Below, piece by piece: positions 1,927-21,901 of a DNA stretch of 30,211 bases. The stretch is from a virus. Its lineage: Duplodnaviria; Heunggongvirae; Uroviricota; Caudoviricetes. The notes below the pieces were generated by a model that ran no database searches, was not told where the DNA came from, and saw only the letters and a program-made list of their open reading frames with translations. The stretch lies in IMG/VR virus record IMGVR_UViG_2693429554_000017, one strand, 5' to 3'. Numbering within the stretch: the first letter of the stretch is position 1; the number at the start of each line of letters is the position of its first letter. A program made the translations under genes and the position numbers.

Positions 1927-2423
1927 CAGTGATGACGCTCAATCTCGTTGAAAAACAGCCAGCAGCTATGCGCCGGATAATTGGCAAGCATCTGGCCGTC
2001 CCTCGCTGGCAGGATACATGTGATTATTATAATCAGATGATGGAACGCGAACGGCTAACGGTTTGCTTCCATGCGCAGTTAAAACAGCGTCACGCAACGA
2101 TGCGTTTTGAAGAAATGAACGACGTCGAACGTGAACGGCTGGTTTGTGCAATTGATGAATTGCGTGGGGCATTCTCAAAACGCCGTCAGGTTGGCGCAAG
2201 TGAGTATGCATATATTAGTTTTTTAACAGTCAGTCAGCGTCGTACTTTATTTATGCATGCCGGTTTGACTGAAAAAGAATTCAACCAGCCATACTGGCGA
2301 ATTAATGAAGAATCATGTTACTGGCGTGATGCTTTATTCCGTGCATTACGTGAATTATTCAGCCTGTTTGAGTATGCACCGACAATTCTGACGTCGGTAA
2401 AACCAGAGCAATATCTGCATTAA
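1923..2423 (+). CDS. B: replication protein B
   Basis: 166-aa ORF, same length as P2 gpB as I recall it, in the syntenic position; start overlaps the upstream stop. Confidence 0.8.
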   Translation: MTVMTLNLVEKQPAAMRRIIGKHLAVPRWQDTCDYYNQMMERERLTVCFHAQLKQRHATMRFEEMNDVERERLVCAIDELRGAFSKRRQVGASEYAYISFLTVSQRRTLFMHAGLTEKEFNQPYWRINEESCYWRDALFRALRELFSLFEYAPTILTSVKPEQYLH

Positions 2424-3012: not shown

Positions 3013-3237
3013 ATGCCGGACAACGTAGATTTTATTCAGGAACAACAGGCTGAATTACTGGAGCGCCAGATTAACGCGGCAAGGGTAAAACATTGCGGTG
3101 TTTCTGCGCTGGTTTGCGAAGAGTGTGACGCGCCAATACCTGCTGCCCGTCGTGCGGCTTACCCGTCAGCCACGCGTTGTGTTTCCTGTCAGTCAGTCTT
3201 TGAAGCAAAAAACAAACATTACCGGAGAACGGCATGA
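3013..3237 (+). CDS. DksA/TraR-family C4 zinc-finger protein (P2 orf82-like)
   Basis: 74 aa with CxxC...CxxC (CEECDAPIPAARRAAYPSATRCVSCQ), typical of the TraR/DksA C4 zinc finger. Confidence 0.7.
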   Translation: MPDNVDFIQEQQAELLERQINAARVKHCGVSALVCEECDAPIPAARRAAYPSATRCVSCQSVFEAKNKHYRRTA

Positions 3238-3509
3238 GTATTCGTATTGAAATTGGCGAACGTTATGTCGTTACCAGTGACAGCTTTCAGTTTATTCTCC
3301 ACGAGAAAAAGAGAGCGGAAAGCGGTAAAAACGCCGGTCAGGAATGGCTGGCGGTGGTTGGTTATTACCCGAAATTAAGCCAGCTCGTTTCAGGCCTGAT
3401 GCATCACGATATTCTGACCGGAAGCGCAAAGTCTTTTGCTGATTTAAACGTGCAGGTTGAGCAACTCAGCAAGCGTTGTTCAGAGGCTTTTGGCTCATAT
3501 GGCCGTTAA
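3234..3509 (+). CDS. hypothetical early protein (P2 orf83-like)
   Basis: 91-aa ORF, start overlapping the upstream stop; syntenic with P2 orf83 just before A. Confidence 0.55.
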   Translation: MSIRIEIGERYVVTSDSFQFILHEKKRAESGKNAGQEWLAVVGYYPKLSQLVSGLMHHDILTGSAKSFADLNVQVEQLSKRCSEAFGSYGR

Positions 3510-5775
3510 AGCCTCCGGGCGTTTTGTCCCTCCGTCAGCATTTGCCGCAGGCACCGGTAAGATGTTTACCGGTGCTTATGCATGGAACGCGCCACGCGAG
3601 GCCCTCGGGCGCGAAAGACCCCTTACACGTGACGAGATGCGTCAGGTGCAAGGTGTTTTATCCACGATTAACCGCCTGCCTTACTTTTTGCGCTCGCTGT
3701 TTACTTCACGCTATGACTACATCCGGCGCAATAAAAGCCCGGTGCACGGGTTTTATTTCCTCACATCCACTTTTCAGCGTCGTTTATGGCCGCGCATTGA
3801 GCGTGTGAATCAGCGCCATGAAATGAACACCGACGCGTCGTTACTGTTTCTGGCAGAGCGTGACCACTATGCGCGCCTGCCGGGAATGAATGACAAGGAG
3901 CTGAAAAAGTTTGCTGCCCGTATCTCATCGCAGCTTTTCATGATGTATGAGGAACTCAGCGATGCCTGGGTGGATGCGCATGGCGAAAAAGAATCGCTGT
4001 TTACGGATGAGGCGCAGGCTCACCTCTATGGTCATGTTGCTGGCGCTGCACGTGCTTTCAATATTTCCCCTCTCTACTGGAAAAAATACCGTAAAGGGCT
4101 GATGACCACGAGGCAGGCATATTCTGCCATTGCCCGTCTGTTTAACGATGAGTGGTGGACTCATCAGCTTAAAGGCCAGCGTATGCGCTGGCATGAAGCG
4201 TTAATGATAGCTGTCGGGGAGGTCAATAAAGACCGTTCTCCTTATGCCAGTAAACACGCCATTCGTGATGTGCGTGCGCGCCGCCAGGCAAATCTGGAAT
4301 TTCTTAAATCGTGTGACCTTGAAAACAGGGAAACCGGCGAGCGCATCGACCTTATCAGTAAGGCGATGGGCAGTATTTCTAATCCTGAAATTCGCCGGAT
4401 GGAGCTGATGAACACCATTGCCGGTATTGAGCGTTACGCCGCCGCAGAGGGTGATGTGGGGATGTTTATCACGCTGACCGCGCCGTCAAAGTATCACCCG
4501 ACTCGTCAGGTCAGAAAAGGCGAAAGTAAAACCGTTCAGCTTAATCACGGCTGGAACGATGAGGTATTTAATCCAAAGGATGCGCAGCGTTATCTCTGCC
4601 GCATCTGGAGCCTGATGCGCACGGCATTCAAGGATAATGATTTACAGGTCTACGGTTTGCGTGTCGTCGAGCCACACCACGACGGAACGCCGCACTGGCA
4701 TATGATGCTTTTTTGTAATCCACGCCAGCGTAACCAGATTATCGAAATCATGCGTCGCTATGCGCTCAAAGAGGATGGTGACGAAAGAGGAGCCGCGCGA
4801 AACCGTTTTCAGGCAAAGCACCTTAACCGGGGCGGTGCTGCGGGATATATCGCGAAATACATTTCAAAAAATATCGACGGCTATGCACTGGATGGTCAGC
4901 TCGATAACGATACCGGTAAGCCGCTTAAAGATACTGCCGCGGCTGTTACCGCATGGGCGTCAACGTGGCGCATCCCGCAATTTAAAACGGTTGGACTGCC
5001 GACAATGGGGGCTTACCGTGAACTACGCAAATTGCCTCGCGGCGTCAGTATTGCTGATGAGTTTGACGAACGCGTCGAGGCTGCTCGCGCTGCCGCAGAC
5101 AGTGGTGATTTTGCGTTGTATATCAGCGCGCAGGGTGGGGCAAATGTCCCGCGCGATTGTCAGACTGTCAGGGTTGCCCGTAGCCCGTCGGATGACGTTA
5201 ACGAGTACGAGGAAGAAGTCGAGAGAGTGGTCGGCATTTACGCGCCGCATCTCGGCGCGCGTCATATTCATATCACCAGAACGACGGACTGGTGCATTGT
5301 GCCGAAAGTTCCGGTCGTTGAGCCTTTGACTTTAAAAAGCGGCATCGCCGCGCCTCGGAGTCCTGTCAATAACTGTGGAAAGCTCACCGGTGGTGATACT
5401 TCGTTACTGGCTCCCACACCTTCTGAGCACGCCGCAGCAGTGCTTAATCTGGTTGATGACGGTGTTATTGAATGGAATGAACCGGAGGTCGTGAGGGCGC
5501 TCAGGGGCGCATTAAAACACGACCTGCGAACGCCAAACCGTCAGCAAAGAAACGGAAGCCCGTTAAAACCACATGAAATTGCACCATCGGCCAGACTGAC
5601 CCGGTCGGAAAGAATGCAAATTACCCGTATCCGCGTTGACCTTGCTCAGAACGGTATCAGGCCGCAGCGATGGGAGCTTGAGGCGCTGGCGCGTGGCGCG
5701 ACCGTAAATTATGACGGGAAAAAATTCACGTATCCGGTCGCTGATGAGTGGCCGGGGTTCTCGTTACCCATTTGA
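3499..5775 (+). CDS. A: rolling-circle replication initiator endonuclease A
   Basis: ORF 3457..5775; preferred start ATG 3499 (MAVKASGRF...), giving about 758 aa, close to P2 gpA as I recall. Contains HWHMMLF and a tyrosine-rich segment typical of phage Rep endonucleases. Confidence 0.9.
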   Translation: MAVKASGRFVPPSAFAAGTGKMFTGAYAWNAPREALGRERPLTRDEMRQVQGVLSTINRLPYFLRSLFTSRYDYIRRNKSPVHGFYFLTSTFQRRLWPRIERVNQRHEMNTDASLLFLAERDHYARLPGMNDKELKKFAARISSQLFMMYEELSDAWVDAHGEKESLFTDEAQAHLYGHVAGAARAFNISPLYWKKYRKGLMTTRQAYSAIARLFNDEWWTHQLKGQRMRWHEALMIAVGEVNKDRSPYASKHAIRDVRARRQANLEFLKSCDLENRETGERIDLISKAMGSISNPEIRRMELMNTIAGIERYAAAEGDVGMFITLTAPSKYHPTRQVRKGESKTVQLNHGWNDEVFNPKDAQRYLCRIWSLMRTAFKDNDLQVYGLRVVEPHHDGTPHWHMMLFCNPRQRNQIIEIMRRYALKEDGDERGAARNRFQAKHLNRGGAAGYIAKYISKNIDGYALDGQLDNDTGKPLKDTAAAVTAWASTWRIPQFKTVGLPTMGAYRELRKLPRGVSIADEFDERVEAARAAADSGDFALYISAQGGANVPRDCQTVRVARSPSDDVNEYEEEVERVVGIYAPHLGARHIHITRTTDWCIVPKVPVVEPLTLKSGIAAPRSPVNNCGKLTGGDTSLLAPTPSEHAAAVLNLVDDGVIEWNEPEVVRALRGALKHDLRTPNRQQRNGSPLKPHEIAPSARLTRSERMQITRIRVDLAQNGIRPQRWELEALARGATVNYDGKKFTYPVADEWPGFSLPI

Positions 5776-17990: not shown

Positions 17991-18594
17991 TTCGCGCCTG
18001 CTGCCGACCGGCTCATCACCGCTTGAAGTTGCCGCCGCAAAAGCCTGTGCGGAAATTGAAAAAACGCCGGTCAGTATTCGTGAACTGTGGAACCCGGACA
18101 CCTGCCCGGCAAATCTGCTGCCGTGGCTGGCGTGGTCATTTTCGGTTGACCGCTGGGATGATAAGTGGCCGGAAGCGACAAAACGCGCTGTTATCCGCGA
18201 TGCGTATTTCATTCACTGCCATAAGGGCACTATAGGCGCAATCCGGCGAGTGGTGGAGCCGCTCGGCTATCTGATTGAGGTAAGGGAGTGGTGGCAGCTC
18301 AACGAGGAGCCGGGGACATTCCGTATCGTTGTTGGTGTGCTTGAGCAGGGTATTACCGAGGAAATGTATCAGGAGCTGGAGCGCCTCGTTGCTGATGCAA
18401 AACCGGCAAGCCGCCATCTGACGGGACTGGCTATCAGCTTAAGTACAACCGGCAACATTTTTGCCGGTGCGGGATGCTATCACGGTGACGCCCTGACGGT
18501 TTATCCCTACACCCCGGAGGCCATTATTGTCGGAGGGGATTATTTCCCGGCCTCGGCCATTCATTTAATTGATAACCTGAGAGTAAACGCATGA
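17983..18594 (+). CDS. I: baseplate / tail-fibre attachment protein I
   Basis: 203-aa ORF overlapping the end of J and the start of H. Confidence 0.85.
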   Translation: MSDSRLLPTGSSPLEVAAAKACAEIEKTPVSIRELWNPDTCPANLLPWLAWSFSVDRWDDKWPEATKRAVIRDAYFIHCHKGTIGAIRRVVEPLGYLIEVREWWQLNEEPGTFRIVVGVLEQGITEEMYQELERLVADAKPASRHLTGLAISLSTTGNIFAGAGCYHGDALTVYPYTPEAIIVGGDYFPASAIHLIDNLRVNA

Positions 18595-19790
18595 CAGTGA
18601 AATACTACGCCATTCTGACTAATCAGGGCGCAGCACGGCTGGCTAAAGCGACGATGCTCGGCAGTAAGCTGAATCTGACGCAAATGGCCGTTGGTGATGC
18701 GAATGGTGTCTTGCCGACACCAGACCCGGCACAGACAAAACTGATTAACCAGAAACGCATCGCGCCGCTGAATCTTCTGAGTGTTGACCCGAACAACCAG
18801 AGCCAGATTATTGCGGAGCAAATCATCCCTGAGAACGAGGGCGGATTCTGGATCCGTGAGATTGGGCTTTATGATGATGAAGGCGTACTCATTGCGGTGG
18901 CGAACTGCCCGGAAACGTACAAACCGCAGTTACAGGAAGGCAGTGGTCGTACCCAGACTATCCGCATGATTCTGGTTGTCACGAATACCGAAGCTATCAC
19001 GCTGAAAATCGACCCGTCGGTGGTACTGGCGACCCGTAAATACGTGGATGATGAAGTCCTGGAATTAAAGCTGTATGTGGATGACCAGATGAGAAACCAC
19101 ATTGCCGCACAGGATCCTCATACCCAGTATGCGCAGAAACATAATCCGACATTTACCGGAGAACCAAAAGCGCCGACGCCTGCCGCAGGAAATAACACCA
19201 CGCGGATTGCGACCACTGAGTTTGTTCAGGCCGCTATTACCGCTCTGATTAACGGTGCGCCTGACACGCTGGACACACTGAAAGAAATTGCCGCGGCCAT
19301 TAACAATGACCCGAAATTCAGCACCACCATTAACAATGCGCTGTCAGGTAAGCAGCCACTGGATGAGACGCTGACTCATTTGAGTGGAAAGGATGTTGCT
19401 GGTCTTCTCGCATACCTTCAATTGAAATCGGCCGCACAACGGGATGTGGGCACTGGCGCAAATCAAATCCCGGATATGAACTCTTTTCATATCTCAACGT
19501 CACAAACAGGATGGTGCAAATTTCCAAATGGACTAATTTTGCAGTGGGGAGTGACGACAACGATATCTGCGTCTGGTAGTGTTTCTTATCCAATACCATT
19601 CCCTGGTGGTTGTTTATTTGTGGGTAAAAATACTTATAGTCCAGTGGCTGCAACAACCGCTGTGTTTGAAATTGTTAATCCGTCTATGACTGGTTTCACT
19701 GCTGCAAACATCGGCAGTCTTACGCAAGGGTCTTCCACTTTTAATGCACCAACACCGTCAGGAATGGCGTTTTTTGCAATTGGATATTAA
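18591..19790 (+). CDS. H: tail fibre protein H (constant N-terminus plus current variable tip)
   Basis: 399-aa ORF; N-terminus resembles P2-family H (MAVGD..., WIREIGLYDDEGVLIAVAN). An inverted-repeat crossover region at 19427-19488 marks the boundary between constant and variable parts. Confidence 0.85.
   Translation: MTVKYYAILTNQGAARLAKATMLGSKLNLTQMAVGDANGVLPTPDPAQTKLINQKRIAPLNLLSVDPNNQSQIIAEQIIPENEGGFWIREIGLYDDEGVLIAVANCPETYKPQLQEGSGRTQTIRMILVVTNTEAITLKIDPSVVLATRKYVDDEVLELKLYVDDQMRNHIAAQDPHTQYAQKHNPTFTGEPKAPTPAAGNNTTRIATTEFVQAAITALINGAPDTLDTLKEIAAAINNDPKFSTTINNALSGKQPLDETLTHLSGKDVAGLLAYLQLKSAAQRDVGTGANQIPDMNSFHISTSQTGWCKFPNGLILQWGVTTTISASGSVSYPIPFPGGCLFVGKNTYSPVAATTAVFEIVNPSMTGFTAANIGSLTQGSSTFNAPTPSGMAFFAIGY
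19427..19488. repeat. left inverted repeat of invertible fibre segment (candidate crossover site)
   Basis: TTCAATTGAAATCGGCCGC is identical in inverted orientation at 21222-21240. Similarity continues imperfectly for about 43 bp more, encoding the same peptide (QLKSAAQRDVGTGANQIPDM) in both copies. Confidence 0.75.
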
Positions 19791-19792
19791 TC

Positions 19793-20224
19793 ATGAGCTA
19801 TGTATACAGCGCTAAAAAAAACGCTTTCTATCCCGTCGAGTTGCAGGACAACTATGAGGCATCAGGAACGTGGCCTGCCGATGGGATAGAAGTTGGAGTG
19901 AATGTATTTAATATTTTTTCTCAGCTTCCACCAGAAGGTAAACAGAGAATTCCTGATAGCAATGGAATGCCTGCCTGGGGCGATATTCCGCCGCCCACTC
20001 ATGATGAATTAGTTGCTGCGGCAACTGCCGAGAAACAGCATCGCATTGATGCTGCGAATGCATTCATGAGCAGCAGGCAATGGCCGGGAAAGGCCGCGAT
20101 GGGGCGTCTGAGCGCTGCGGACAAAGTTCAGTATAATTTATGGCTGGATTATCTTGATGCGCTGGAGGCAGTGGATACTGCCATCGCGCCGGATATCAAC
20201 TGGCCTGCTCGCCCGGCTGAGTAG
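19793..20224 (+). CDS. G: tail fibre assembly chaperone
   Basis: 143-aa ORF immediately after H; its C-terminal region (SSRQWPGKAAMGRL...YNLWLDYLDALEA) is shared with the inverted paralogue at 20447..20875. Confidence 0.8.
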   Translation: MSYVYSAKKNAFYPVELQDNYEASGTWPADGIEVGVNVFNIFSQLPPEGKQRIPDSNGMPAWGDIPPPTHDELVAAATAEKQHRIDAANAFMSSRQWPGKAAMGRLSAADKVQYNLWLDYLDALEAVDTAIAPDINWPARPAE

Positions 20225-20290
20225 GTCACTCGATATCGGGGCTATAGAGATATCAATCGCCTCCATTGCAGGCGTTACCAGATTTTAGCC

Positions 20291-20319
20291 AAAAAAAGCC
20301 CCTGCATTTCTGCAGGGGC
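20291..20319 (-). terminator. rho-independent terminator after the tRNA-like gene
   Basis: On the minus strand GCCCCTGCA-GAAA-TGCAGGGGC (9-bp perfect stem) followed by TTTTTTT, just past the 3' end of the tRNA-like sequence. Confidence 0.75.
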
Positions 20320-20327
20320 CTGATATC

Positions 20328-20403
20328 TGGTGCTGGCTGAATGGAATCGAACCATCGTCTTTCCGCGTACAATGCGAAAGCTCTACCACTGAGCTAAACC
20401 AGC
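20328..20403 (-). tRNA. tRNA-like gene, anticodon UGU (Thr) if canonical; atypical T-stem/acceptor junction
   Basis: 76 nt on the minus strand: GCTGGTT/AGCCAGC 7-bp acceptor stem, D-arm GCTC-AGTGGTA-GAGC, anticodon stem TTCGC/GCGGA with loop AUUGUAC, T-loop TTCGATT, discriminator A and encoded CCA. One extra unpaired C lies between T-stem and acceptor stem. Confidence 0.55.
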
Positions 20404-20414
20404 AATGGTGCAGA

Positions 20415-20442
20415 ATAATACCCGGATTCTGATAAAATGCAA
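20415..20442 (-). promoter_or_regulatory. candidate sigma70 promoter for the tRNA-like gene
   Basis: On the minus strand TTGCAT, 16-nt spacer, TATTAT, ending about 11 nt before the tRNA 5' end and starting 5 nt after the stop of the upstream tail fibre assembly gene. Confidence 0.45.
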
Positions 20443-20446
20443 TAGC

Positions 20447-20875
20447 TTATTGTGGCTGAACAGGCCATTCGATATCAGGTGCAGTTGAAATGCCGAGAGC
20501 TTCCAGCGCATCGAGATAATCCAGCCACAGGTTATACTGCGCCAGCTCATCCCCCTTCAGTCTGCCAATAGCCGCTTTGCCCGGCCACTGCCTGCTGCTC
20601 ATGTAATCGTTGGCCTGGCTAATCAACGCCTGTTTTTTAACGTCAGCTGCTGCAATGAGTTCTTCGCGTGTAGGTGGGGGCATATCCACCCATACTGGCA
20701 TTCCATCGTCTGCTCCCAGAGCTTTTCCAGGTGGTGGTGACCCTGTAAATGTACTGACTATATCATCGCTGATATCAATCATATCAGACATGTCCCATCC
20801 CGCCGATTCATAAGACGACAGCCAGGATTTCGGGAAAAAGTTCACAGTCGTTGCAGACCATTTATATCCGTTCAT
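20447..20875 (-). CDS. alternative tail fibre assembly chaperone (inverted copy)
   Basis: 142-aa minus-strand ORF convergent with G; shares the C-terminal SSRQWPGKAAIGRL...YNLWLDYLDALEA motif with G, N-terminus diverged. Confidence 0.8.
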   Translation of the reverse strand: MNGYKWSATTVNFFPKSWLSSYESAGWDMSDMIDISDDIVSTFTGSPPPGKALGADDGMPVWVDMPPPTREELIAAADVKKQALISQANDYMSSRQWPGKAAIGRLKGDELAQYNLWLDYLDALEALGISTAPDIEWPVQPQ

Positions 20876-20879
20876 TTAT

Positions 20880-21240
20880 TTAGCTCCCGAACGCCAGCCA
20901 GAATATTGTCATTGTACTGGCTGTATTCGTTGTGTATATGCTGAATCGCGACGTGCTATCTACATTGACGTTGAAACTGACAGGTCCGGTTCCATAGAGG
21001 CCGGGGTTAACCAGAGCAGGAATCACACAGGAGCAACGGTTAGGAAACGGAACAGGAAAAAACACAGCGTTACCTGATGAACCACCGGTGATGTTTGGTG
21101 CATTTCCCCCATCAATACCATGCCATTTGGAAACCGGTAATAAAATGCCATGGTTGTCGAACCGCCCGTAAAACTGCTCATATCCGGTATCTGATTCGCA
21201 CCAGTACCCACGTCTCGTTGCGCGGCCGATTTCAATTGAA
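20880..21240 (-). pseudogene. alternative tail-fibre variable tip, disrupted by two frameshifts
   Basis: From the right inverted repeat the minus strand encodes LQLKSAAQRDVGTGANQIPDM...FPNG (parallel to H 19427 onward). Homology to the active tip continues only by changing frame twice, around the G5 run 21106-21110 and the T7 run 21056-21062. Track ORFs 21023..21280 and 20880..21065 are the fragments. Confidence 0.6.
21179..21240. repeat. right inverted repeat of invertible fibre segment (candidate crossover site)
   Basis: Reverse complement of 21222-21240 equals 19427-19445 (19/19). The imperfect extension to 21179 matches 19446-19488 with about 8 mismatches. Confidence 0.75.
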
Positions 21241-21307
21241 CGTTTAAGAAAATGCAGAGATAACGGCTAACTGGCATCATCTCCGGTTTTTATTCAGGGG
21301 ATCCATC

Positions 21308-21901
21308 ATGCTTATTGGCTATGTCCGCGTATCAACAAATGACCAGAATACGGAATTGCAGCGTAACGCGCTGGAGTGTGCAGGATGTGAGCTGATTTTT
21401 GAGGACAAAATCAGCGGCACGAAGTCCGACTGGCCGGGACTGAAAAAACTGCTCAGGACATTATCGGAGGGGGATACACTGGTAGTCTGGAAGCTGGACC
21501 GGCTGGGGCGTAGTATGCGGCATCTGGTCATTCTGGTTGAGGAGCTGCGCGAACGCGGCATTAATTTTCGCAGCCTGACGGATGCCATTGATACCAGCAC
21601 GCCAATGGGGCGTTTTTTCTTTCATGTGATGGGTGCCCTGGCTGAAATGGAACGAGAACTCATTGTCGAGCGGACTCGCGCCGGACTGGAAGCGGCCAGA
21701 GCTAAAGGTCGTATTGGTGGCAGACGTCCGAAGCTCACCGCGAGTGAGTGGGAACAGGCAGGACGGTTGCTGGCTGCGGGTGAATCACGTCAACGCGTGG
21801 TGCTGATTTTTGATATTGGCCTGTCCACGCTCTATAAAAAATTCCCCTCATCAGCGGCAAAGAATAAATTGTGTCATCCCTTAGCCAACCGGGACAAATA
21901 G
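21308..21901 (+). CDS. serine recombinase, DNA invertase (Gin/Hin/Cin/Pin family)
   Basis: 197 aa. N-terminal resolvase/invertase catalytic domain (MLIGYVRVSTNDQNTELQRNAL with the active-site Ser in YVRVST; LVVWKLDRLGRS) and a C-terminal HTH. Adjacent to the right inverted repeat. Confidence 0.9.
   Translation: MLIGYVRVSTNDQNTELQRNALECAGCELIFEDKISGTKSDWPGLKKLLRTLSEGDTLVVWKLDRLGRSMRHLVILVEELRERGINFRSLTDAIDTSTPMGRFFFHVMGALAEMERELIVERTRAGLEAARAKGRIGGRRPKLTASEWEQAGRLLAAGESRQRVVLIFDIGLSTLYKKFPSSAAKNKLCHPLANRDK

What the first reader, a model, noticed from the sequence alone, without database searches (positions are those of the whole stretch)
19427..21901. Invertible tail-fibre tip cassette with serine invertase, whose alternative tip appears decayed
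A 19-bp perfect inverted repeat (extended imperfectly to about 62 bp) lies inside H at 19427 and again at 21222-21240, bracketing about 1.8 kb. The segment contains the current fibre tip plus G, the tRNA-like gene, an inverted second assembly chaperone and an inverted alternative tip, with a 197-aa Gin/Hin-family invertase immediately outside. This is the Mu G-segment / P1 C-segment architecture sitting at the P2 Z/fun position. The alternative tip needs two frame changes (near the G5 run at 21106-21110 and the T7 run at 21056-21062) to stay homologous to the active tip, while its chaperone is intact. So after inversion H would be truncated: either the switch is locked or decaying, or these homopolymers are slippage-prone or sequencing errors. 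I did not find the classical gix/hix AAACC..GGTTT consensus, so the crossover site may be of a different subtype.
Basis: partly seen in the sequence, partly recalled or inferred. Interest (0 to 1): 0.5.

Follow-up and report, generated by a model that had tools for sequence, protein, structure and literature searches.

The report
Locked, decaying phage tail-fibre inversion switch
This is a familiar kind of phage host-range switch (an invertible tail-fibre tip cassette in a P2-like E. coli prophage) that appears frozen in one orientation and is decaying, so it is a well-documented ordinary case, not a new mechanism.

Summary
A perfect 19-bp inverted repeat (19417-19435 / 21222-21240; arms 83 nt, 81%) brackets active tip + chaperone, a terminator, tRNA-Thr(UGU), an inverted chaperone and an inverted second tip. 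A 197-aa Gin/Pin-type serine invertase lies just outside. The window is an E. coli P2-like prophage, and this layout is very common there.

- The alternative tip needs one frame change, not two. Adding one G to the G5 run at 21106-21110 restores a 395-aa fibre that aligns without gaps to intact homologues.
- The frameshift is not a sequencing error. Every known copy has it.
- The crossover sites are half classical. The outer half-sites and TT core are pix-type and identical to flipping relatives. Both inner half-sites are CAATTGAAATCG instead of GGTTTGGGAGAA.

New evidence:
- The invertase carries R42W at the conserved arginine equivalent to Tn3 resolvase R45. This change is unique to this lineage. 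The closest relative differs by 3 nt and has Arg.
- None of the predicted flipped-orientation products exists in the public collection, while more than 300 contigs carry the unflipped fibre.
- Canonical relatives are found in both orientations.

Verdict: a fossilised member of the Din inversion family. Interest is low to moderate.

The parts
18591..19790 (+). Tail-fibre gene H (399 aa). The constant part runs 18591-19416. The currently fused variable tip runs 19417-19790.
   Evidence: Pfam Phage_tail_fib residues 1-150 (E=2.3e-62) and Gp53-like_C residues 310-399. Members of the 399-aa H cluster carrying this tip are recorded on more than 300 contigs.
19405..19430 (+). Left 26-bp crossover site: TTCTCGCATACC | TT | CAATTGAAATCG. 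Pix-type outer half, core, then a non-consensus inner half.
   Evidence: The outer half and core are identical to relatives L008-L011, whose inner half is GGTTTGGGAGAA. Compared with the Din site table in PMC3241671.
19405..19487 (.). Left arm of the inverted repeat. The perfect 19 nt lie at 19417-19435.
19793..20224 (+). Tail-fibre assembly chaperone (P2 G-like) for the active tip. Intact, 143 aa.
   Evidence: Pfam Caudo_TAP E=2.6e-31. The exact sequence is on 278 contigs.
20296..20321 (-). Intrinsic terminator: 11-bp G+C-rich stem followed by a T-run on the - strand. It lies just downstream of the tRNA.
20328..20403 (-). Phage-type tRNA-Thr (anticodon UGU) with encoded CCA. It sits between the two convergent chaperone genes.
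   Evidence: ARAGORN. Rfam RF00005 56.4 bits. Annotated by PGAP. About 79-80% identical to the tRNA-Thr of N4-like and Klebsiella phages. Absent from canonical relatives.
20415..20442 (-). Candidate sigma-70 promoter for the tRNA: TTGCAT, 16-nt spacer, TATTAT. It ends about 11 nt before the tRNA 5' end.
   Evidence: Read by eye from the sequence. The scan did not report it because the -35 hexamer matches only 3 of 6. Inference only.
20447..20875 (-). Second (inverted) tail-fibre assembly chaperone. Intact, 142 aa.
   Evidence: Pfam Caudo_TAP E=9.2e-28. The exact sequence is on 298 contigs.
20880..21240 (-). Alternative tip cassette with no start codon or visible promoter of its own. It is disrupted by one 1-nt frameshift.
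21106..21110 (-). G5 run (C5 on the + strand) where one G is missing relative to intact homologues (…FPNGMVLMGG NAPNITGG…).
   Evidence: All database copies are the frameshifted form.
21170..21252 (.). Right arm of the inverted repeat. The perfect 19 nt lie at 21222-21240.
21227..21252 (-). Right 26-bp crossover site, read on the - strand: TTTTCTTAAACG | TT | CAATTGAAATCG. In Din-table orientation it reads CGATTTCAATTG AA CGTTTAAGAAAA. The outer half matches the pixR outer half at 11 of 12 positions.
21308..21901 (+). Din-family serine DNA invertase, 197 aa, full-length ORF.
   Evidence: Pfam Resolvase E=2.8e-50 and HTH_7 E=6.5e-12. Gin structure 3UJ3 E=3e-93. 96-98% identical to the invertases of relatives with canonical sites.
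21431..21433 (+). Codon 42 is TGG (Trp) where the family has Arg (SDRPGL). This position is equivalent to Tn3/gamma-delta resolvase R45.
   Evidence: Alignment to Gin and gamma-delta resolvase. W in all 6 loci of this lineage and R in all relatives. The closest relative has AGG, a 1-nt difference. Tn3 R45A/K data in PMC2794168.

Best explanation
This is a Din-family (Gin/Cin/Hin/Pin-type, here closest to Pin/pix) invertible tail-fibre segment in a P2-like E. coli prophage. It has become fixed in one orientation and is decaying.

Design (inferred by homology): the invertase would cut at the TT/AA core of two inverted 26-bp sites, one inside H and one upstream of its own gene. Flipping about 1.8 kb would fuse the constant part of H either to tip 1 (with chaperone 1) or to tip 2 (with chaperone 2).

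In this lineage three things have gone wrong.
- Both inner half-sites are CAATTGAAATCG instead of the family's GGTTTGGGAGAA. They arrived with a foreign, lower-G+C cassette block.
- The invertase has R42W at the conserved arginine of the SDRPGL loop.
- Tip 2 has lost one G in a G-run, so a flipped H would be a truncated 347-aa protein.

Shown: the anatomy, the single frameshift, the substitution and its lineage specificity, the hybrid sites, and the absence of the flipped state in public assemblies.

Inferred: that R42W and/or the hybrid sites are the cause of the locking, and that the frameshift followed as neutral decay of a cassette that is never expressed.

The prophage still makes a normal fibre from tip 1 and chaperone 1. 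The tRNA-Thr gene with its terminator, lying between the chaperone genes, is extra cargo that travels with the tip 1 block.
For: - Architecture and family.
- Identity of the window: 100% identical to two complete E. coli chromosomes.
- Sites: the outer half-sites and core are identical to relatives L008-L011 and L076, whose right-hand site equals pixR. The dix consensus scan passes in L009 with 1-2 mismatches and fails in the window at up to 3.
- Positive control for flipping: the in-silico flipped junction of L009 exists at 100% identity in at least 7 complete genomes (63 genomes at 80% coverage or more, against 500 for the unflipped junction).
- This lineage, orientation by DNA: all 3 complete genomes, L003-L005, L015 and the metagenome fragments L049 and L035 are unflipped.
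- This lineage, orientation by protein: exact look-ups of the predicted flipped products all returned 'not in the collection'. These were H' of 347 aa, repaired H' of 395 aa (three H variants covering 314 contigs) and the displaced tip of 136/137 aa. H with tip 1 is on more than 300 contigs.
- R42W. Tn3 R45A gives no in vivo resolution and a cleavage rate of 0.0034 of control; R45K gives 0.022 (PMC2794168).
- Frameshift: single, and fixed in every copy, including E. albertii.
- G+C falls to 0.43-0.47 inside the segment, against 0.56-0.59 in the flanks.
Against: - No read-level data were available, so a low inversion rate cannot be excluded.
- In an activated Tn3 resolvase background, R45A/K kept some in vitro activity. 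W42 may therefore be impaired and not dead.
- Natural functional sites can have one poor half. By my count the hixR outer half matches the dix consensus at only 2 of 7 specified positions (table). The hybrid sites are therefore not proven inactive.
- The core and inner half-site show no synonymous divergence between the arms (0 of 5 codons), against 8 of the next 15 codons (about p=0.02 by my calculation). This hints at present or past DNA-level constraint.
- The invertase ORF and the second chaperone are still intact.
- Contig counts include redundant and clonally related assemblies.
- One homology search failed to list the H cluster itself, so absence from such lists is weak evidence. The exact look-ups are the stronger test.
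Confidence: 0.75

Rival explanations
1. The switch is still active, using a variant crossover-site subtype (canonical outer half, TT core, CAATTGAAATCG inner half). Inversion would then toggle between a functional fibre and a truncated one, acting as an on/off phase variation of infectivity or a slow bet-hedging switch.
For: - The core and inner half are perfectly conserved between the two arms while the following codons are saturated with synonymous changes.
- The same TT+CAATTGAAATCG element is joined to four different canonical-like outer halves in three phage contexts: the window's left and right sites, L012-L016 and L041, and L046.
- hixR shows that a site with one poor half can work.
- The invertase ORF, the second chaperone and the region where Gin/Hin carry their enhancer are intact.
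Against: - No flipped copy was found among more than 300 contigs, while canonical relatives show both states.
- R42W is specific to this lineage.
- The invertase is 99.5% identical in DNA to one that sits beside canonical inner halves, so no co-adapted DNA-binding domain is evident apart from A165V.
- The other loci with this inner half show no invertase gene nearby in the parts examined, and are themselves remnants.
Confidence: 0.15
2. The frameshift in the alternative tip is a homopolymer sequencing or assembly error, and the alternative tip is really intact.
For: It lies in a G5/C5 run, a typical site for indel errors.
Against: - The same frameshifted fragments (125, 85, 84, 70 and 61 aa) are recorded on dozens of contigs from independent NCBI, JGI, ENA and Logan assemblies, including E. 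albertii.
- Three complete genomes agree.
- No intact version of this tip was returned by the homology search. The best intact hits were only 80% and 75% identical.
Confidence: 0.02
3. The repeat is only a by-product of two convergent tip cassettes sharing a conserved peptide (QLKSAAQRDVGTGANQIPDM). This particular pair of repeats was never a working recombination substrate here. The cassettes would have been pasted in by ordinary recombination next to an invertase left over from an older switch.
For: - The arms are coding sequence, and their differences are synonymous.
- The same peptide motif occurs in many unrelated tips.
- The inner halves do not fit the consensus.
Against: - The foreign block begins exactly at the TT core on both sides, next to pix-type outer halves that are identical to working relatives.
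- There are no synonymous differences within the 14 nt of core plus inner half.
- The layout is colinear, gene for gene, with flipping relatives.
Confidence: 0.08

Closest known systems
Pin/pix inversion system of the E. coli e14 element, and the same switch in P2-like E. coli prophages (relatives L008-L011 and L076; EPEC E2348/69 prophages in PMC4272514)
   Same: Same position between G and FI. Same gene order: H constant part, tip, chaperone, inverted chaperone, inverted tip, invertase. The invertase is 96-99.5% identical. The outer half-sites and TT/AA core are identical. The right-hand site of the relatives is identical to pixR, and the window's right outer half matches pixR at 11 of 12 positions.
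   Different: Both inner half-sites are CAATTGAAATCG, not GGTTTGGGAGAA. The invertase has R42W. The alternative tip is frameshifted. A 222-nt spacer carrying a tRNA-Thr and a terminator separates the chaperone genes, which overlap tail to tail in the relatives. Only one orientation is on record.
Gin/gix G-segment of phage Mu (and Cin/cix of P1)
   Same: A serine invertase with the same domain layout (3UJ3 E=3e-93 over residues 1-184). The invertible segment swaps the fibre C-terminus together with its chaperone. The site lies inside the fibre gene and the invertase lies just outside the other site.
   Different: gix is TTATCCAAAACC TC GGTTTACAGGAA, with both halves fitting the consensus. The window's sites have only one consensus half. 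The Mu segment is about 3 kb and carries no tRNA. Mu lysogens hold both orientations (established knowledge; PMC4272514 reports this for an EPEC Mu prophage).
Hin/hix flagellar switch of Salmonella, specifically hixR
   Same: A natural precedent for a site with one consensus half and one strongly divergent half (TTTTCCTTTTGG) (table in PMC3241671).
   Different: In hix the divergent half is the outer one of a single site, and the partner site hixL is fully canonical. Here both sites carry a divergent inner half.
Tn3 / gamma-delta resolvase R45 mutants
   Same: W42 aligns with R45 (SDR-K/E-GL against SDWPGL). R45A/K abolish in vivo resolution and cut the cleavage rate 45- to 300-fold.
   Different: A different subfamily (resolvase, not invertase) and different substitutions. 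The effect of Trp in a Gin/Pin-type enzyme has not been measured.

Membership tests
Din-family serine DNA invertases (Gin/Hin/Cin/Pin) | A protein of about 190 aa with an N-terminal resolvase catalytic domain and a C-terminal HTH_7 DNA-binding domain, closely similar to Gin | tested here: met
   Pfam PF00239 E=2.8e-50 and PF02796 E=6.5e-12. Gin 3UJ3 E=3e-93.
Din-family serine DNA invertases (Gin/Hin/Cin/Pin) | The complete set of conserved catalytic-domain residues (Tn3 numbering Y6, R8, S10, Q14, Q19, D36, R45, D67, R68, R71, E118) | tested here: not met
   Y5, R7, S9, Q13, Q18, D33, D64, R65, R68 and E115 are present when mapped by eye on the alignment. The R45 equivalent is W42. The importance of R45 is taken from PMC2794168.
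Din-family inversion system | Two inverted 26-bp crossover sites fitting TTC----AAAC- -A -GTTT----GAA, with identical core dinucleotides | tested here: inconclusive
   The cores are identical (TT/AA). By my count each outer half matches 6 of 7 specified positions and each inner half only 2 of 7. The full pattern fails at up to 3 mismatches in the window but passes in relative L009. hixR shows that one poor half can be tolerated.
Din-family inversion system | A Fis-dependent recombinational enhancer inside the 5' part of the invertase gene | not tested
   The only observation is that the first 170 nt or so of the gene are nearly identical to those of canonical relatives. No Fis-site model was applied.
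Din-family inversion system | Both orientations of the segment occur in nature or in cultures | tested here: not met
   No predicted flipped product is in the collection and every locus inspected is unflipped. Canonical relatives show both junctions. Read-level data were not available.
Invertible tail-fibre host-range cassettes (Mu G, P1 C, e14 P, P2-like) | Two alternative fibre C-termini, each followed by its own chaperone, arranged head to head so that inversion swaps them onto one constant N-terminus | tested here: met
   Two Gp53-like_C tips and two Caudo_TAP genes in convergent orientation. In-silico inversion at the core keeps the reading frame through the junction. Tip 2 is a pseudogene through one frameshift.
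tRNA genes | Cloverleaf scoring above the Rfam gathering threshold, with a defined anticodon | tested here: met
   RF00005 56.4 bits against 29. ARAGORN calls tRNA-Thr(TGT). The cmscan alignment shows one inserted U in the 3' strand of the T-stem. Expression and charging were not tested.

The most novel reading that the evidence does not exclude
CAATTGAAATCG could be the inner half of a functional, undescribed hybrid subtype of Din crossover site. In that case the block tip - chaperone - terminator - tRNA-Thr would move between unrelated phage fibre genes by invertase-mediated exchange exactly at the TT core. Four different canonical-like outer halves are joined to it in three phage contexts. 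The tRNA would then be cargo whose sense relative to the late operon is set by segment orientation.
Probability: 0.15. Interest if true: 0.5.

Novelty: new member of a known kind. Interest (0 to 1): 0.27.

Why it matters
Invertible fibre cassettes are the textbook way temperate phages hedge host range. This locus is a natural example of how such a switch dies: a foreign cassette replaces the inner half-sites, the invertase takes a single-base hit at a conserved arginine, and the silent tip then picks up a frameshift.

Practical points:
- PGAP annotates the broken tip as an ordinary 125-aa CDS with a CTG start, which hides the pseudogene.
- Host-range prediction for this prophage should count only tip 1.

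Two modestly interesting leads for specialists are the hybrid sites and the tRNA gene riding inside an invertible segment. Neither changes the general picture.

Tried and rejected
- Two-frameshift model: rejected. One added G suffices, and the A6/T6 run is in frame.
- Sequencing error: rejected. The frameshift is fixed in all copies.
- Programmed -1 frameshift or slippage at the G5 run: considered and rejected by inspection. G GGG GAA is not an X XXY YYZ heptamer, five G's are too few for transcriptional slippage, and the cassette is not in an expressed position.
- Scan of genome contigs for the 19-mer: only chance hits in Rhodobacterales and a Siminovitchia genome. That collection has one genome per species, so it could not inform on orientation.
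- Relaxed site patterns in viral and metagenome contigs: mostly chance matches. Only L035, L041, L046 and L049 were relevant.
- Full dix consensus scan of the window: the only hit is a chance match at 2089-2114.
- A second dyad inside the arms (TTCAATTGAA palindrome; ATCAAATCCCGGATATGA): examined by eye. Neither has the 12-2-12 geometry or a match to the consensus.
- Homology search with the active tip: it did not return the H cluster itself. I therefore did not rely on absence from homology lists and used exact look-ups instead.
- Trans-complementation argument: only one of the three complete carrier genomes has a second invertase homologue. The lack of flipping therefore cannot be pinned on the sites alone.

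Full report
**What the window is.** The region is 100% identical over 2,661 nt to the chromosomes of E. coli 377323_2f and EC12. It is 99.8% identical to Z1323PEC0014, apart from an IS200 insertion there. Gene order around it (V, W, J, I, H, G … FI, FII, E, T) and the ORF map of the whole window show a P2-like (Peduovirus-type) prophage that looks otherwise complete.

**Checking the observation.**
- The perfect 19-mer TTCAATTGAAATCGGCCGC occurs once on each strand, at 19417-19435 and 21222-21240. It never occurred in 100 shuffles.
- The imperfect arms are 19405-19487 / 21170-21252, 83 nt at 81%.
- Between the arms lie, in order:
  - the H tip (Gp53-like_C);
  - a Caudo_TAP chaperone (19793-20224);
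  - a strong - strand terminator (20296-20321);
  - tRNA-Thr(UGU) (20328-20403, - strand; Rfam 56.4 bits);
  - a second intact Caudo_TAP gene (20447-20875, - strand);
  - a second tip on the - strand.
- A 197-aa Resolvase+HTH_7 protein follows at 21308-21901.

**The alternative tip has one frameshift, not two.**
- The frame that continues from the repeat reads …FPNGMVLMGEMHQ… and stops at 21023.
- The frame carrying the rest of the domain is open from 21257 to 20880.
- Adding one G to the G5 run (C5 at 21106-21110 on the + strand) gives …FPNGMVLMGGNAPNITGGSSGNAVFFPVPFPNRCS…AFGS.
- This repaired tip covers 83 of 84 positions of Gp53-like_C (E=8.9e-11).
- It aligns without gaps to the intact homologues P0001 (80%) and P0002 (75%), including across the second homopolymer (AVFFPVPFP here, AVFFPIPFP in P0001).
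- The lesion is real. Only frameshifted fragments (125, 85, 84, 70 and 61 aa) are recorded, on dozens of contigs including E. albertii, and no intact copy of this tip was returned.
- PGAP annotates the 3' part as a 125-aa CDS with a CTG start, which masks the pseudogene.

**The crossover sites are hybrids.**
- In relatives with a 96-99.5% identical invertase (L008-L011, L076), the sites read TTCTCGCATACC|TT|GGTTTGGGAGAA (TTCTTGCATACC in L076) and TTTTC(A/T)TAAACG|TT|GGTTTGGGAGAA.
- Written in the orientation of the published Din table (PMC3241671), the right site of L008-L011 is identical to pixR of e14 (TTCTCCCAAACC AA CGTTTATGAAAA).
- The window has exactly the same outer halves and core, but CAATTGAAATCG as the inner half at both ends.
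- By my count against the dix consensus, the outer halves match 6 of 7 specified positions and the inner halves 2 of 7.
- The full pattern is found in L009 with 1-2 mismatches but not in the window at up to 3.
- This alone does not prove the sites dead. hixR is a natural site with an equally poor half.
- The core and inner half show no synonymous divergence between the arms (0 of 5 codons), while 8 of the next 15 codons differ at third positions.
- The same TT+CAATTGAAATCG element is joined to other canonical-like outer halves in two further phage contexts.
  - L012-L016 and L041 carry an orphan tip+chaperone cassette in direct orientation, with no invertase gene in the stretches examined.
  - L046 has a different fibre shaft but the same tip 1, chaperone, terminator and tRNA at 98.5%, plus only the last 94 nt of the second chaperone.
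- I read this as evidence that the element was a working site somewhere in its history, and that the cassette block (G+C 0.43-0.47 against 0.56-0.59 in the flanks) was imported whole.

**The invertase.**
- It is a full-length Din-type enzyme (Gin 3UJ3 E=3e-93).
- In the SDRPGL loop it reads SDWPGL.
- W42 aligns with Gin R42 and with gamma-delta/Tn3 resolvase R45.
- W42 is present in all six loci of this lineage. Arg is present in every relative and in every listed cluster member that contains the motif.
- The closest relative (EC0885, L076) differs by 3 nt in 594. One of these is AGG to TGG at codon 42. That relative sits beside canonical inner half-sites.
- In Tn3 resolvase, R45A and R45K give no detectable resolution in vivo, with cleavage rates of 0.0034 and 0.022 of control. 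Some in vitro activity remains (PMC2794168).
- By inference, R42W should strongly impair this invertase. The effect of Trp has not been measured.

**Orientation in nature.**
- Positive control: I flipped the canonical relative L009 in silico at its TT core. The predicted junction exists at 100% identity in at least 7 complete E. coli genomes (63 genomes at 80% coverage or more), against 500 for the unflipped junction. PMC4272514 also reports coexisting orientations in P2-like prophages of EPEC.
- For the window's lineage, every DNA copy inspected is unflipped: 3 complete genomes, L003-L005, L015, and the metagenome fragments L049 and L035.
- Exact look-ups in the 15-billion-protein collection found H with tip 1 on more than 300 contigs.
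- The same look-ups found none of the predicted flipped products:
  - truncated H' built on three H variants;
  - repaired H' built on the same three variants;
  - the displaced tip 1 ORFs of 136 and 137 aa.
- The corresponding unflipped ORFs that start at MMPVSRY or MPVSRY are on 16 contigs.
- An active switch should randomise orientation among isolates. Uniformity therefore argues for no or very rare inversion.

**Interpretation.** The best reading (about 0.75) is a fossilised Pin-type tail-fibre switch, locked in the tip 1 orientation, whose silent tip 2 has begun to decay.
- Which lesion locked it (hybrid sites, R42W, or both) is not resolved.
- Two of the three complete carrier genomes have no second invertase homologue, so trans-complementation cannot be used to separate the two causes.
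- The main rival (about 0.15) is a still-active, slow switch using a variant site.
- Sequencing error (about 0.02) and 'never a recombination substrate here' (about 0.08) are unlikely.

**The tRNA.**
- The 222-nt spacer between the chaperone genes is unique to this lineage and L046. In canonical relatives the two chaperone genes overlap tail to tail.
- The tRNA is about 79-80% identical to the tRNA-Thr genes of N4-like and Klebsiella phages and has no close E. coli counterpart.
- It has an encoded CCA, a downstream terminator, and a by-eye candidate promoter (TTGCAT-16-TATTAT, 20442-20415). It is therefore probably an independent small transcription unit.
- Its function was not tested.

**Novelty and score.** Invertible fibre cassettes with Din invertases in P2-like prophages are known and very common. 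Of 5,426 complete E. coli genomes, 4,682 have at least one homologue of this invertase gene, and hundreds carry the canonical junction. This is a new, degenerate member of a known kind, with two modest curiosities: the hybrid half-sites and a tRNA inside the segment. Interest 0.27.

Noticed in passing
window 20225-20446; L046 1070-1290: The tRNA-Thr(UGU) with its terminator sits inside the invertible segment. It travels with the tip 1 + chaperone block into a different phage fibre context: L046 is 98.5% identical over window 19406-20540. Canonical relatives have no spacer or tRNA at this position. The cmscan alignment shows one inserted U in the 3' strand of the T-stem.
   Followed up: partly
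L002 (NZ_CP148268.1) about 3990-4700; corresponds to window ~20291/20292: In strain Z1323PEC0014 an IS200C element is inserted immediately next to the terminator hairpin, between chaperone 1 and the tRNA. This adds further decay inside the same segment.
   Followed up: no
window 20880-21257 (-); L001 4581-4958: RefSeq/PGAP annotates the broken alternative tip as an ordinary 125-aa 'gp53-like domain-containing protein' (WP_425333308.1). It uses a CTG start in the wrong upstream frame and is not flagged as a pseudogene.
   Followed up: yes
L012 4890-7200 (also L013, L014, L016, L041): Another P2-like phage group has H + chaperone followed by an orphan tip + chaperone cassette in direct orientation. 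The orphan cassette has no evident promoter and is preceded by GTGCTCGAAACG|TT|CAATTGAAATCG. A canonical-like site lies in H (…CAAAACC TT GGTTTAGTAGAC). No invertase gene was seen in the stretch examined; a 609-aa multi-pass membrane protein (acyltransferase-like, judged by eye) follows on the opposite strand. It looks like another decayed inversion or shufflon remnant.
   Followed up: partly
L010 (NZ_CP074354.1) 1616-1865 and 3062-3311: In this canonical relative the inverted repeat is perfect over 250 nt, so the two alternative tips are identical for about 80 codons. This suggests recent homogenisation or duplication of one tip.
   Followed up: no
window 21801 (codon 165 of the invertase): Besides R42W, the only other amino-acid difference from the closest relative is A165V, inside the HTH_7 DNA-binding domain. 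Whether it relates to the altered inner half-sites is unknown.
   Followed up: no
window 2089-2114 (-): A match with 3 mismatches to the Din palindromic consensus lies far from the tail-fibre region. About 1.2 such matches are expected by chance, so it is probably meaningless.
   Followed up: no
L006 6001-6967; L007 6001-8037: The closest intact homologues of both tips are the C-termini of short (126-208 aa) fibre proteins. In the two loci examined (for the tip 2 homologues P0001 and P0002) these belong to a different myovirus type with Baseplate_J, Phage_Wedge1 and Sheath_initiator genes. L007 has its own inverted tip pair with TT|GGTTTGGGAACG sites at a prophage end, with no invertase gene within the 12 kb held.
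   Followed up: partly
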